DNA from: Minisyncoccota bacterium
GTDB lineage: Bacteria; Patescibacteriota; Minisyncoccia; Phycocordibacterales; UBA9973
Length of the DNA stretch: 60,740 bases
Reading direction: 5' to 3'
Assembly: GCA_041663185.1 (NCBI GenBank)
Contig: JBAZQY010000003.1
Span: forward strand, 1-60,740
Under the pieces are notes generated by a model. It had not been told where the DNA came from. It worked only from the letters and a program-made list of their open reading frames with translations, and did not search any database. The translations under genes and the position numbers were made by a program. Each line of letters begins with the position of its first letter. The stretch's first letter is position 1. This document shows, piece by piece, positions 19,664 to 53,227 of this stretch.

Positions 19664-19690
19664 TCTCCGCTAGGACTTTCCTAGCGGAGA
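19664..19690. repeat. REP-like 27-bp palindrome, copy 1
   Basis: tctccgctagga-ctt-tcctagcggaga. Confidence 0.95.
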
Positions 19691-20325: not shown

Positions 20326-20352
20326 TCTCCGCTAGGACTTTCCTAGCGGAGA
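20326..20352. repeat. REP-like 27-bp palindrome, copy 2
   Basis: Identical to copy 1; abuts the RAYT stop codon. Confidence 0.95.
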
Positions 20353-21009
20353 TTAATTTTTAAAAGATAACCATTCAAATATTTCCTTTTTAAAATATTT
20401 TTCCGTGGAAAAATACTGAGGAAAATTATCTATATTTAAAACTTTGTTCTGAACTCTATTTTCTCCTAAATAATCAGCATAACTAGAATATTTATACTCA
20501 TTTAAAAATTTAAGGGCTTGATTTTTATTTTTAATCCCTTCTTCTTTCCATTTTTTATCTATAAGTTTTATTGGATTAAGATGTATGTAAGAATATAAAT
20601 ATTTTAAATATCTATCATGATCTACATGCTCTGCTTTAAACTTACCCTCAAAAAGACTTCCTGTTCTTTCGTATTTTTTATTAAAATACATTACATAAGC
20701 AGTTAAAAGCTTTTTCATAAACTTACTAATTCCTTCATCTTCTTTTTGTATAATTAAAATATGAAAATGGTTAGGCATTAAACAATATGCTCCTATACTA
20801 ACTAAAAGATTTTTTCTTTTTACATTAAAAAGACCCTCATCTTTCTGTAAATTATCAGATTTAAAATTTTCAATTTGATTACAAGCATACATTAAGCCGA
20901 CAAAACGCTTATAATCTTCTTTATCTTTAAAAATAACTTTTTTATCATTTCCACGATTGTAAAGATGAAAATATTCACCTTGAATAAATTTTATTTTTCG
21001 TAGTGCCAT
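20353..21009 (-). mobile_element. REP-associated tyrosine transposase (RAYT, Y1 HUH family)
   Basis: HLYNRG, AYCLMPNHFHIL (HUH), YFNKKYERTGSLFEGKF, catalytic YIHLNP; flanked by inverted REP copies. Start moved to MALRK (21009). Confidence 0.93.
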
Positions 21010-21030: not shown

Positions 21031-21057
21031 TCTCCGCTAGGAAAGTCCTAGCGGAGA
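21031..21057. repeat. REP-like 27-bp palindrome, copy 3 (opposite orientation)
   Basis: tctccgctagga-aag-tcctagcggaga, the reverse complement of copies 1 and 2. Confidence 0.95.
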
Positions 21058-51813: not shown

Positions 51814-52350
51814 ATGGTAGTTATCGTTCAAAATGGGGATAAGACCTTACGTAAAATCTCAAAAGAGGTTCCTATTCTAGATATCAAAAAACCAAAAATA
51901 CAACAAATCATTAAAGACATGAGCGATGCTCTGGATTCGCAATATGACGGAGTAGCTATTGCCGCTCCACAGATTGGAGTTTCGTTGCGAATCTTTGTTG
52001 TTTCTGGAAAAATATTTGATGAAAATTTTGTCAGAGGTGAAAAACCTAATGGAAAAAATAGTTATGATAAAAAACAGTGGCCTAATTTAGTTTTCATAAA
52101 TCCAGTTTTTAAAAAAATTTCAAAAGATAGAAAATTAATGACTGAGGGTTGTCTTTCTGTTAGGCCATTATATGGAAAAGTTCGCCGTGCGACCAGAGCA
52201 ACTATCGAAGCATATGATGAACATGGGAAGAAATTTGTTCAAGAAGGAGCTGGATTACTTGCTCATATTTTTCAACATGAGACAGATCACCTAGATGGCA
52301 TACTTTTTATCGATAAAGCAAAAAATCTTCAAGAAGTTTTTAATGAATAA
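51814..52350 (+). CDS. def: Peptide deformylase
   Basis: GVAIAAPQIG, EGCLS, QHETDHLDG. Confidence 0.98.
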   Translation: MVVIVQNGDKTLRKISKEVPILDIKKPKIQQIIKDMSDALDSQYDGVAIAAPQIGVSLRIFVVSGKIFDENFVRGEKPNGKNSYDKKQWPNLVFINPVFKKISKDRKLMTEGCLSVRPLYGKVRRATRATIEAYDEHGKKFVQEGAGLLAHIFQHETDHLDGILFIDKAKNLQEVFNE

Positions 52351-53227
52351 AATGAATGAAAAATTAAAATTTATTTTCTTTGGAACACCCCAAATAGCTA
52401 GCCAAACACTTGATATTCTAACTAGTTGTGGATATATACCTTCAATAATAGTAACTTCACCAGATAAACCCGCTGGGCGTGGTTTACATTTAACTCCTAG
52501 CCCAGTTTCCATTTGGGCCGAAAAACACAATATTCCTTGTTTGAAACCCGAAAAAATAACCCCTGAGTTTATAGAAAAATTAAAATCACCACCAGTCGGA
52601 CTGGTGGCCAGCCACCAGTCCGACTGGTGGCTGGATCTTTTTGTGGTTGTCGCTTACGGGAAAATCTTGCCTGAATCACTTATTAAAACTCCTAAATTAG
52701 GCACAATTAATATTCATTATTCTCTATTACCTAGATGGAGGGGCGCTTCTCCGCTTGAGGCAACATTATTAAATGGAGATACTGTAACCGGAGTAAGTAT
52801 TCAACAAATGGCTTTCAAATTAGATAGTGGACCAATTCTCGCCAAAGAAGAAATTCCGATTGAATTAAACGAAACCAAGGAAGAACTAAAAAACAAATTA
52901 ATAAAATTGGGAGGAGATTTACTTTGTAAAATAATTCCAGAAATTCTTGAAAATAAAATTACTCCAGAGGATCAAGATGAAACAAAAGTAACTTATTGCA
53001 TAAAAATAAAGAAAGAAGATGGCCAGATAGACCCGAGTGGTGATCCTATCCTAAACTGGAATAAATACCGAGCATTTTATGGTTGGCCGGGTATTTTTTT
53101 CTTCAAAAACGAAAAGCGAATTAAAATTACTAAAGCTAAATATGAAAATGATTCATTCATTATCGAAAGAGTGATCCCTGAAGGAAAGAAAGAGATTAAT
53201 TATAGTGAATTATTAAAACAAAATTAA
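52343..53227 (+). CDS. fmt: Methionyl-tRNA formyltransferase, with an in-frame palindromic insert
   Basis: FFGTP, DKPAGRG, VVAYG, NIHYSLLPRWRGASP, LDSGPI. Confidence 0.96.
   Translation: MNKMNEKLKFIFFGTPQIASQTLDILTSCGYIPSIIVTSPDKPAGRGLHLTPSPVSIWAEKHNIPCLKPEKITPEFIEKLKSPPVGLVASHQSDWWLDLFVVVAYGKILPESLIKTPKLGTINIHYSLLPRWRGASPLEATLLNGDTVTGVSIQQMAFKLDSGPILAKEEIPIELNETKEELKNKLIKLGGDLLCKIIPEILENKITPEDQDETKVTYCIKIKKEDGQIDPSGDPILNWNKYRAFYGWPGIFFFKNEKRIKITKAKYENDSFIIERVIPEGKKEINYSELLKQN
52589..52634. repeat. Inverted REP-like doublet inside fmt
   Basis: ccaccagtc-g-gactggtgg followed by ccagccaccagtc-c-gactggtggctgg. Confidence 0.9.

What the first reader, a model, noticed from the sequence alone, without database searches (positions are those of the whole stretch)
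52589..52634. Head-to-head REP doublet (REPIN-like) translated inside fmt
Seen: two adjacent perfect palindromes with the same core (CCACCAGTC-n-GACTGGTGG) in opposite orientation (central G vs C). They encode PPVGLVASHQSDWWL between EKLKS and DLFVVVAYG, where Fmt normally has a short loop (established from family knowledge). The reading frame of an essential gene is preserved.
Basis: partly seen in the sequence, partly recalled or inferred. Interest (0 to 1): 0.62.

Follow-up and report, generated by a model that had tools for sequence, protein, structure and literature searches.

The report
Transposase-linked hairpin pair translated inside fmt
Two back-to-back copies of a small DNA hairpin that belongs to a transposase-like gene elsewhere in this tiny (CPR/Paceibacteria) genome sit in frame inside the methionyl-tRNA formyltransferase gene, adding 15 residues to a surface loop that relatives have also had hit by hairpin inserts.

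Summary
Window 52589-52607 and 52612-52630 are perfect 19-nt palindromes that differ only in the central base (G or C). They lie in frame in fmt and encode PPVGLVASHQSDWWL.

The REP/REPIN reading is supported. The genome (763 kb, 34% GC) has only three other copies. Two flank a RAYT-like HUH/Y1 transposase gene on another contig, and one lies in frame inside it. That protein's best structural match is E. coli TnpA-REP (4ER8).

- Family spread: the hairpin family occurs in 29 of 93 genomes of the genus, in four compensatory stem variants. It was absent from the 24 other families of the order sampled.
- Insert status: 48 of 59 Fmt orthologues have a short loop, so the doublet is an insert.
- Structure: the AlphaFold model puts it in a coil between a helix and a strand, and the catalytic residues are kept.
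- Recurrence: the same loop holds other palindromes in at least five independent lineages. Family copies also lie in frame in rnhB, mnmA, alaS, argS and pheT of relatives.
- Assembly: an independent assembly reproduces the doublet.

I read it as a tolerated selfish passenger. It is a low-copy, often intragenic CPR variant of the REP/RAYT kind. Intragenic REP dimers are already published for other phyla.

The parts
52352..53227 (+). fmt (methionyl-tRNA formyltransferase). Alternative start codons lie at 52343 and 52295. It is the only fmt in the genome.
   Evidence: TIGR00460 scores 222.8 bits against a cutoff of 201.5. Pfam finds Formyl_trans_N and Formyl_trans_C. The AF2 model has pLDDT 93.6 and TM 0.86 to 2FMT. 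The second genome match is only the reverse strand of the hairpin.
52589..52607 (+). REP unit 1: CCACCAGTCGGACTGGTGG, a perfect 19-nt palindrome with central G, translated as PPVGLV(A).
   Evidence: It is identical to the copy upstream of the RAYT-like gene at G000 C2:5202-5220.
52608..52611 (+). CCAG spacer. It is the loop of the long doublet hairpin and also the 5' foot of unit 2.
52612..52630 (+). REP unit 2: CCACCAGTCCGACTGGTGG, with central C, the exact reverse complement of unit 1, translated as (S)HQSDWW. The extended 27-nt unit CCAGCCACCAGTCCGACTGGTGGCTGG spans 52608-52634.
   Evidence: The 27-mer is identical to the copy downstream of the RAYT-like gene (C2:5961-5987). The in-frame copy inside the gene (C2:5521-5547) matches it at 26 of 27 positions, reading CTAG... 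in place of CCAG. The same frame gives the same peptide, SHQSDWWL, inside that gene.
52589..52633 (+). The translated insert: 45 nt, 15 codons (PPVGLVASHQSDWWL), residues 80-94 of the 291-aa Fmt. It lies in the coil between helix 71-78 and strand 96-100.
   Evidence: residues 81-90 have mean pLDDT 68, against 93.6 overall. The sequence has no stop codon in any of the six frames.
52608..52644 (+). A terminator-like pattern inside fmt: the 12-bp hairpin of unit 2 followed by ATCTTTTTGT. A mirror pattern lies on the - strand (52631-52588 followed by GATTTTAATT).
   Evidence: This is a pattern match only, not evidence of function.
51814..52350 (+). def (peptide deformylase), directly upstream of fmt. 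The def-fmt pair is intact.
   Evidence: One search gives the ORF. One search gives Pfam PF01327 on the identical gene in locus L132.

Best explanation
The 45-nt block is a REPIN-like inverted doublet of a short palindromic element, here called R1. Its core is CCACNNGTC-S-GACNNGTGG. R1 is the cognate hairpin of one of six RAYT-like HUH/Y1 tyrosine 'transposase' genes of this Paceibacteria (CPR) genome.

Inferred mechanism, by analogy with E. coli TnpA-REP and IS200/IS605 TnpA: the enzyme recognises the hairpin on single-stranded DNA, cuts and rejoins at its foot, and so moves or copies single units or inverted pairs.

One such pair landed in the loop between helix alpha3 and strand beta4 of the Rossmann-type N-domain of Fmt. 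It survived for three reasons:
- it is 15 whole codons long;
- it has no stop codon in any frame;
- the loop is a permissive surface connection on the face away from the active-site crevice.

It is now simply translated as PPVGLVASHQSDWWL. Fmt most likely stays active, and the insert is a tolerated passenger, not an adaptation.

Shown: the sequence, its family and its link to the RAYT-like gene; that it is an insert; that the predicted loop is disordered; that the catalytic residues are kept; and that the same loop is hit repeatedly in relatives.

Inferred: enzyme-mediated mobility, neutrality, and retained Fmt activity.
For: **Genome census**
- R1 has 5 copies in the genome: the fmt pair plus three at C2:5202, 5525 and 5965. 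Those three flank, and lie in frame inside, a 233-aa ORF.

**The ORF is RAYT-like**
- NCBIfam REP_Tyr_transpos E 9e-13 and Pfam Y1_Tnp E 3e-4.
- NHFH and YIHLNP motifs are invariant.
- The AF2 model's best PDB match is 4ER8, TnpA-REP bound to a REP hairpin, at E 3e-7, followed by the ISDra2 and IS608 transposases.

**Gene and hairpin go together**
- All six paralogs in G000 have a private hairpin.
- Of 74 loci of the family from GTDB species, 58 have an upstream hairpin, 40 an internal one and 50 a downstream one. In 45 loci at least two hairpins share an identical inner arm.

**R1 behaves as a family**
- It is in 29 of 93 genus genomes and in none of 24 other families of the order.
- It has four variants, CA/TG, AA/TT, AT/AT and AG/CT, each changed on both arms.

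**The fmt block is an insert**
- 48 of 59 orthologues have the short loop, and G000 has 11 residues more than 1FMT.

**Fmt looks intact**
- N120, H122 and D158 are invariant. The model has pLDDT 93.6, and the insert is a coil with pLDDT about 68.

**Doublets are a natural form**
-.

**In-frame R1 copies occur in other housekeeping genes of relatives**
- rnhB in three genomes, mnmA in two, plus alaS, argS and pheT.

**Independent assembly**
-.
Against: - No transposition or cleavage activity is shown for any CPR RAYT-like protein.
- The protein scores below the curated cutoffs: 48.3 bits against 80, and 21.2 against 23.
- The family has very low copy number. The fmt pair is the only dispersed occurrence in this genome, so 'mobile' rests on comparison between species.
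- Some relatives carry R1 copies without an R1-type RAYT: G010 with 14 copies, and also G087, G075 and G111.
- The net length gain is +12 aa, not +15, so a few codons were replaced or the ancestral loop differed.
- The nearest relatives, G024 and G070, also have non-REP inserts at this spot. The event may therefore be old, or a replacement, and not a fresh insertion.
- Recurrence at one loop in many lineages is more than simple random insertion plus tolerance readily explains.
- Fmt activity with the insert is untested.
Confidence: 0.7

Rival explanations
1. Replacement, not fresh insertion. The ancestor of G000, G024 and G070 already carried an insert, perhaps an older R1 copy, in this loop. 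In G000 the resident sequence was overwritten or refreshed by the current cognate hairpin. This could happen by RAYT-mediated hairpin-for-hairpin exchange or by gene conversion from the copies at the RAYT gene.
For: - A concatenated Fmt+Def+HPF tree groups G000 with G024, G070 and G007 (SH-aLRT 89). G024 and G070 both have inserts at the same position.
- G070's insert has exactly G000's length.
- G024, G030 and G070 share ...GCCACGTGGATC..., which aligns to G000's GCCAGCCAC-CAGTCC.
- The G000 copies are letter-perfect and identical to the RAYT-linked copies.
- The net gain is +12 aa, not +15.
- The outer stems of R1 copies are copy-specific yet complementary.
- Earlier notes of this scan raised the same idea. 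They are leads only.
Against: - G007, in the same small group, has the short loop.
- G030, which shares LPRGS with G024, lies elsewhere in the tree (97 SH-aLRT with G082, which has the short loop).
- The similarity between the relic and R1 is only about 8-12 nt.
- No mechanism of this kind is documented for Y1 enzymes.
- G010 and G087 carry R1 in fmt without an R1-type RAYT.
Confidence: 0.17
2. The hairpin pair is functional where it sits. It could act as an RNA or DNA structure, for example a translation-sensitive attenuator or terminator within def-fmt, or a binding site that lets the RAYT-like protein influence the operon. Alternatively the 15-residue peptide could add a useful surface to Fmt.
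For: - A terminator-like pattern lies on both strands at the doublet.
- The RNA fold of the region is -53 kcal/mol, z -8.5.
- Palindromes occupy the same loop in at least five independent lineages.
- Published REPs can act as terminators or mRNA stabilisers (PMC3733652).
Against: - 48 of 59 orthologues do without any insert.
- The inserts at this loop belong to unrelated palindrome families, sit in different reading frames, and have decayed in some lineages.
- The peptide is a low-confidence coil.
- The pattern scan is not evidence of termination, and translating ribosomes would melt the hairpin.
Confidence: 0.07
3. Assembly or amplification artefact: a chimeric inverted duplication that is not present in the organism's DNA.
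For: - Palindromes and inverted duplications are classic products of assembly and MDA errors.
- Raw reads could not be inspected.
Against: - The identical doublet and protein appear in an independent Logan assembly (SRR18595301) and in records from NCBI, JGI and ENA.
- The length is a multiple of three in an otherwise intact gene.
- The same doublet form occurs in other genomes.
- The units are identical to the copies at the RAYT gene on another contig.
Confidence: 0.02

Closest known systems
REP / RAYT (TnpA-REP) systems, 'REPtrons', of Proteobacteria (E. coli YafM/RayT, PDB 4ER8) and REPIN doublets of Pseudomonas
   Same: - A Y1/HUH tyrosine enzyme gene is bracketed by its own short palindromes in inverted orientation.
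- Further copies lie elsewhere in the genome, some as inverted doublets able to form one long hairpin.
- Hairpin sequence co-varies with the gene.
- The best structural match of the protein is 4ER8.
   Different: - The protein is about 233 aa with a long C-terminal helical part, and scores below the curated RayT cutoff (48 bits against 80).
- No 5' GT[AG]G foot: GTGG lies in the 3' arm.
- The units are perfect 19-27-nt palindromes.
- Copy number is 2-20 per genome, not hundreds.
- There are six paralogs, each with a private hairpin, in a 763-kb genome.
- A quarter to a third of the dispersed copies examined lie in frame inside housekeeping genes.
TnpA-REP subclass 2.4 (RAYT group 4) of Quentin et al. 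2018 (PMC6006769)
   Same: [quoted passage not shown] This is the arrangement at G000 C2:5525-5543 and in 40 of 74 related loci. The HuH motif NH[IFV]H fits.
   Different: - The published subclass has a median length of 194 aa, a WQ motif and YIxNNP.
- Here the protein is 233 aa with FE at the W position and YIHLNP. By motif this resembles their subclass 2.1 (238 aa, NH[YF]H / FQ / Y[IV]HLNP), for which no REPs were found.
- The classification was not tested by phylogeny here.
- The paper has no match for 'Parcubacteria' or 'Candidatus'.
Intragenic GTAG/CGTC REPs (Di Nocera et al. 2013, PMC3733652) and Rickettsia palindromic elements (RPEs)
   Same: Palindromic repeats are inserted in frame in functional housekeeping genes. 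[quoted passage not shown] Genes for tRNA synthetases and nucleic-acid enzymes are among the hosts. The elements are presumed to sit in tolerant loops.
   Different: - A different lineage (CPR) and an unrelated sequence.
- The units are much shorter than RPEs. From my own knowledge, not checked here, RPEs are about 100-150 bp.
- Here the cognate transposase-like gene is identifiable in the same genome.
- The same loops (fmt, rnhB, mnmA) are hit repeatedly in different species.
IS200/IS605 transposases (IS608 and ISDra2 TnpA) and their hairpin ends
   Same: The same fold class (Foldseek ranks 2-13). The gene lies between subterminal hairpins. The presumed substrate is ssDNA.
   Different: - Copies of the gene within a genome are not near-identical.
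- The hairpins, not the gene, are what is dispersed.
- The gene carries a hairpin in frame inside itself.

Membership tests
Methionyl-tRNA formyltransferase (Fmt, TIGR00460) | Scores above the curated equivalog cutoff and has the two-domain Fmt fold | tested here: met
   222.8 bits against 201.5. TM 0.86 to 2FMT, 1FMT and 4IQF.
Methionyl-tRNA formyltransferase (Fmt, TIGR00460) | Catalytic Asn/His/Asp of the formyltransferase site (E. coli N108, H110, D146; the numbering is from my own knowledge) | tested here: met
   N120, H122 and D158 are invariant in 56 genus sequences. They align to INVHGS...LDTGD of 1FMT.
REP/RAYT system (REPtron) | Y1 HUH enzyme with HuH and catalytic Tyr motifs and the TnpA-REP fold | tested here: met
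   NHFH and (S)YIHLNP are invariant. The Foldseek top hit is 4ER8 at E 3e-7, TMt 0.64. The model is of moderate confidence (pLDDT 79.9).
REP/RAYT system (REPtron) | Meets the curated sequence threshold for RayT (NF047646) or Y1_Tnp (PF01797) | tested here: not met
   48.3 bits against 80, and 21.2 against 23. A profile against PDB sequences finds 4ER8 only at E 0.44. It is a distant relative, not an equivalog.
REP/RAYT system (REPtron) | The gene is flanked by its cognate palindromes in inverted orientation | tested here: met
   C2:5202 (central G) lies upstream and C2:5965 (central C) downstream. The layout is general in the family.
REP/RAYT system (REPtron) | Many dispersed, mostly extragenic copies (REP = repetitive extragenic palindrome) | tested here: not met
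   G000 has 5 copies, and the only dispersed ones are intragenic. Relatives have 1-20 copies. About 11 of 20 further sampled sites are intergenic.
REP/RAYT system (REPtron) | Conserved 5' GT[AG]G tetranucleotide at the foot of the hairpin | tested here: not met
   The unit reads 5' CCAC...GTGG 3' on both strands, so GTGG is part of the 3' arm. The flanks are copy-specific.
REP/RAYT system (REPtron) | The enzyme binds, cleaves and rejoins its REP on ssDNA | not testable with these tools
   This needs purified protein and oligonucleotides.
REPIN (REP doublet forming hairpin) | Two REPs in inverted orientation, a short spacer, and one long hairpin | tested here: met
   Unit 2 is the reverse complement of unit 1, with a 4-nt spacer. 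The fold has a 19-bp stem at -25.6 kcal/mol, z -8. In G020 and G077 only the long pairing is perfect.
REPIN (REP doublet forming hairpin) | The doublet is the predominant, replicating unit of the family | tested here: inconclusive
   G000 has one doublet. Doublets exist in G013, G017, G020 and G077, but singlets are the majority of the listed sites.
In-frame palindromic elements of the RPE type | In-frame insertion in an intact gene, at a surface position that leaves the fold intact | tested here: met
   This rests on a predicted structure only.
In-frame palindromic elements of the RPE type | Sequence relationship to, or size of, the Rickettsia RPE families | not tested
   No RPE sequence was compared. 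The unit length of 19-27 nt is far below the roughly 100-150 bp I recall for RPEs.

The most novel reading that the evidence does not exclude
The Fmt alpha3-beta4 loop, and matching loops of RNase HII and MnmA, may be recurrent landing pads. In this reading Paceibacteria RAYT-like enzymes do not insert at random. They exchange or rewrite hairpins at sites that already hold one: a hairpin-for-hairpin cassette exchange inside coding DNA. This would keep copies letter-perfect, let outer stems stay complementary while differing between loci, and make gains nearly length-neutral.
Probability: 0.15. Interest if true: 0.75.

Novelty: new variant of a known kind. Interest (0 to 1): 0.5.

Why it matters
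REP/RAYT systems are known mainly from Proteobacteria, as abundant extragenic repeats. Here the same kind of system appears in ultra-small CPR genomes, which have almost no intergenic space.

In this setting the hairpins are few. Each is tied to its own paralogous enzyme gene. They persist largely by hiding in frame in surface loops of essential translation genes.

The fmt doublet is a clean, testable example:
- The 15-residue insert can be removed or transplanted to ask what an essential enzyme tolerates.
- The cognate enzyme and its 19-nt substrate are both defined, so binding and cleavage can be assayed.

Repeated hits on the same loop in different species raise a question that comparison of close relatives could settle: does targeting or selection set where such elements survive?

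For annotation, it warns that GC-rich 'odd loops' in CPR housekeeping proteins can be selfish DNA and not lineage-specific adaptations.

Tried and rejected
- **Read-level check.** I used an exact-protein look-up in other assemblies instead.
- **Sequence searches of the RAYT-like protein against PDB.** The single sequence found nothing relevant. The 14-sequence profile found 4ER8 only at E 0.44. The fold comparison was needed.
- **Literature.** Searches joining RAYT, REPIN or TnpAREP with CPR, Patescibacteria or Parcubacteria gave no relevant paper. PMC8266576 does not treat in-frame REPs.
- **Dating the insertion from close relatives.** This failed. The best Fmt identity among 93 genus genomes is 71%.
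- **Single-gene Fmt tree.** It left G000 unresolved. The three-protein tree gave only SH-aLRT 89.
- **Rejected readings.**
  - Intron, intein or programmed frameshift: the block is 45 nt, in frame, with no splice or intein motifs.
  - tRNA-derived sequence: the block is a pure palindrome.
  - A native long Fmt loop: 48 of 59 orthologues are short.
- **Correction.** The '1 TAA' flag on the window's own RAYT paralog was an alignment overrun. The gene is intact.
Full report
**1. The observation**

Window 52589-52634 reads CCACCAGTCGGACTGGTGG-CCAG-CCACCAGTCCGACTGGTGG-CTGG.
- Both 19-mers are perfect palindromes around one unpaired base, G in the first and C in the second. The second is therefore the exact reverse complement of the first.
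- None of 100 dinucleotide-preserving shuffles of the window gives a match, even with three mismatches allowed.
- The block lies in a 291-294-aa ORF (52352 or 52343 to 53227, + strand) and is read as PPVGLVASHQSDWWL between ...PEFIEKLKS and DLFVVVAYG.
- The ORF is Fmt. TIGR00460 scores 222.8 bits against a curated cutoff of 201.5. Pfam finds Formyl_trans_N and Formyl_trans_C.
- def lies directly upstream. The ORF is the only fmt in the genome: the second 'match' is the reverse strand of the hairpin itself.

**2. Is it an insert?**

- I aligned 59 Fmt orthologues from species of the same genus. In 48 of them the segment between the helix ...EFIxxL and the strand (I/V)VVAYG has the short form. 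G000 is 12 residues longer than the mode.
- Against E. coli Fmt (1FMT/2FMT) the excess is 11 residues at the same place.
- An AlphaFold2 model built on 56 genus sequences has mean pLDDT 93.6. It shows helix 71-78, coil 79-95 and strand 96-100. The insert (residues 80-94) falls in the only internal low-confidence block, where residues 81-90 have mean pLDDT 68.
- The model superposes on solved Fmt structures with TM 0.86.
- The formyltransferase Asn, His and Asp are invariant.
- A helix-to-strand connection in a Rossmann-type fold lies at the N-terminal edge of the sheet, opposite the face where substrates bind. That the insert is harmless is an inference from this topology. It has not been measured.

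**3. What the palindrome belongs to**

- The assembly (762,832 bp, 5 contigs, 34% GC) holds only three further copies, all on contig C2, at 5202, 5525 and 5965.
- They bracket a 233-aa ORF (C2:5253-5954), and the middle copy lies in frame inside it. There it is read in the same frame as in fmt...MPNHFHIYITPSHQSDWWLEIGKG....
- The ORF matches NCBIfam REP_Tyr_transpos at E 9e-13, but at 48 bits it is below the cutoff of 80. It matches Pfam Y1_Tnp at E 3e-4.
- Its HuH (NHFH) and Tyr (YIHLNP) motifs are invariant among relatives.
- Its AlphaFold model (pLDDT 79.9) has as best PDB match 4ER8, the E. coli REP-associated tyrosine transposase bound to a REP hairpin (E 3e-7). The ISDra2 and IS608 transposases follow.
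- The upstream flank has the G-centred form and the downstream flank the C-centred form. This is the same order as the two units in fmt. The fmt doublet therefore looks like the two ends of the RAYT unit with the gene removed.
- As single-stranded DNA the pair folds best as one 19-bp hairpin with a CCAG loop (-25.6 kcal/mol, z -8). This is close in energy to two separate hairpins of -8.3 and -14.1 kcal/mol.

**4. Is the link between gene and hairpin general?**

- G000 has six paralogs of this protein, 44-56% identical to each other. One lies in this window at 20353-21009 on the - strand and is intact.
- Each paralog has a different private hairpin upstream, and most also have one downstream or inside the gene. 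Each hairpin family has only 2-5 copies in the genome.
- In 30 loci from the genus the three positions carry the same hairpin within a locus but different hairpins between loci. The positions are about -50 to -20, nucleotides 270-297 in frame, and at or just after the stop codon.
- In 74 loci from GTDB species with full flanks, 58 have the upstream hairpin, 40 the internal one and 50 the downstream one. In 45 loci at least two hairpins share an identical 8-nt inner arm.
- The record titles are Candidatus Nomurabacteria, Paceibacterota, Parcubacteria and Zambryskibacteria.

**5. The R1 family in relatives**

- The pattern CCACNNGTCSGACNNGTGG occurs in 29 of 93 genomes of the genus. It occurs in none of 24 other families of the order.
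- Copy number ranges from 1 to 20 per genome.
- There are four stem variants (CA/TG, AA/TT, AT/AT, AG/CT), each changed on both arms so that pairing is kept.
- Doublets spaced 22-27 nt occur in G013, G017, G020 and G077. In G020 and G077 each unit is an imperfect palindrome, but unit 2 is the exact reverse complement of unit 1, so only the long hairpin is perfect.
- Three bases outside the core also pair, but they differ from copy to copy: ttc/gaa, cag/ctg, tag/cta, ttg/caa, tct/aga.
- Several genomes hold R1 copies without an R1-type RAYT. These are G010 with 14 copies, and also G087, G075 and G111. Copies therefore outlive the gene, or the gene is missing from those assemblies.

**6. In-frame copies elsewhere, and recurrence**

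- NCBIfam confirms that R1 copies lie in frame in several genes of relatives:
  - rnhB of G010, G069 and G012, at the same loop in three different readings (STSRTGGE, PPVGLVGK, LPQVRLVAK);
  - mnmA of G004 and G021;
  - alaS, argS and pheT of G010.
- About 11 of 20 further sampled sites are intergenic.
- All three reading frames occur. The 46-mer has no stop codon in any of the six frames. That is true of 0.45% of genomic 46-mers and of 12% of random 46-mers at 65% GC.
- The Fmt loop itself is hit repeatedly:
  - G087 has one R1 unit (AA/TT) in the same frame, read as PSHKSDLW.
  - G010 has one R1 unit (AT/AT) in another frame, read as SPHVGHVE.
  - G065 has an unrelated palindrome with a 22-bp stem.
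  - G012 has a 20-nt palindrome, CCTGCCTACCGGCAGGCAGG.
  - G024, G030 and G070 share LPR[GE]S, encoded by ...GCCACGTGGATC....
- On trees built without the loop columns, the insert-bearing rows are scattered, and well-supported sisters lack inserts. Examples are G065 with G021, G012 with G032, and G087 nested among short-loop rows.
- A three-protein tree needs at least five changes among 48 rows.
- That tree also groups G000 with G024, G070 and the short-loop G007 (SH-aLRT 89). The G000 event may therefore go back to an older occupied site. This is the main rival below.

**7. Mechanism**

Best reading (about 0.7). The block is a selfish REPIN-like pair. It was moved or copied by the cognate Y1 enzyme acting on hairpins in single-stranded DNA, and it was retained because it is in frame, stop-free and in a permissive loop. 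The enzymology is inferred from TnpA-REP and IS608 (PDB 4ER8; PMC8266576; PMC6006769). It is not shown here.

Rivals:
- **Replacement or refreshing of an older insert (0.17).** Support comes from the occupied site in the nearest relatives, the equal length in G070, and the +12 aa, not +15, net gain.
- **A functional RNA or DNA hairpin, or a functional peptide (0.07).** Both strands score as terminator-like at the doublet. Against this, 48 of 59 orthologues lack any insert, and the inserts at this loop are heterogeneous.
- **An assembly artefact (0.02).** An independent Logan assembly of SRR18595301 carries the identical doublet and protein.

**8. Comparison with what is known**

- Intragenic REPs are published. 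[quoted passage not shown] Hosts include tRNA-synthetase and repair genes, and the Rickettsia RPEs are the classic case (PMC3733652).
- The CPR proteins share that trait. By motif and length (NHFH, FE, YIHLNP, 233 aa) they look more like subclass 2.1, for which no REPs were found. I did not test this by phylogeny.
- I found no paper that joins RAYT or REPIN with CPR lineages.
- Several defining features of classical REPs are not met: high copy number, extragenic position, a 5' GTAG foot, and the curated HMM cutoff. I therefore file this as a variant of the REP/RAYT kind, not as a plain member.

**9. Earlier notes of this scan**

Earlier notes describe the same three-hairpin RAYT layout and in-frame hairpins in other Paceibacteria genomes, and other hairpin families in this genome. 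I treated them as leads.
- The layout and the co-variation were re-tested here.
- The 'overwriting' idea remains untested. It is carried as a rival and as the novel case.

**10. Verdict**

The finding is a clear example of a low-copy, frequently intragenic CPR variant of the REP/RAYT system. The new points are the lineage, the direct tie of an intragenic doublet to its cognate enzyme gene, and the repeated use of the same Fmt loop. Interest is moderate (0.5).

Noticed in passing
window 20353-21009 (-), hairpins at 19667-19687, 20329-20349 and 21034-21054: An intact RAYT-like paralog lies in this window. It is flanked by its own hairpin, TCTCCGCTAGGA-nnn-TCCTAGCGGAGA, and has no internal copy. 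A third copy lies 640 nt away, and a fourth lies inside a 245-aa ORF at G000 C2:209633-209653.
   Followed up: partly
G000 C4:9399-10085, C4:41211-41855, C5:28947-29579, C1:178407-179087: Four more RAYT-like paralogs, each with a private hairpin (for example CCCAAAGG-n5-CCTTTGGG, and TATAGGAAGTC-C-GACTTCCTATA). One CCCAAAGG copy sits inside a 924-aa ORF at C5:16254-16274.
   Followed up: partly
L084 (G065 fmt), L044 (G012 fmt), L023/L028/L082 (G024, G030, G070 fmt): The same Fmt loop carries unrelated palindromes in G065 (22-bp stem, CCAGAGGCCTTGCCTATGGCTA...) and in G012. G024, G030 and G070 share the segment ..GCCACGTGGATC.. (LPR[GE]S), which may be a decayed R1 copy. In G070 the insert is flanked by a TCTGCC direct repeat.
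   Followed up: partly
L010 (G012), L125 (G010), L131 (G069): rnhB: R1 units sit at the same loop of RNase HII in three species, in different frames or orientations. mnmA is likewise hit in G004 and G021. This is more coincidence than random insertion would readily give.
   Followed up: partly
60 R1 copies in fetched loci: The three bases outside the 19-nt core differ from copy to copy yet remain complementary (ttc/gaa, cag/ctg, tag/cta, ttg/caa, tct/aga). How locus-specific paired flanks arise is unexplained.
   Followed up: no
G020 C1:679085-679125; G077 C4:92384-92425 (L127, L129): In these doublets each unit is an imperfect palindrome (AT against TT), but unit 2 is the exact reverse complement of unit 1, so only the long hairpin is perfect. 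They lie just before or at the 5' end of pilC-like and rpoC ORFs.
   Followed up: partly
G010, G087, G075, G111: These genomes hold R1 copies (14 in G010) but no R1-type RAYT homologue. G075 and G111 have no homologue of the family at all at E 1e-5.
   Followed up: no
window 52588-52644, both strands: The doublet followed by ATCTTTTTGT (+ strand) or GATTTTAATT (- strand) scores as an intrinsic-terminator-like site inside fmt. This is a pattern match only.
   Followed up: no
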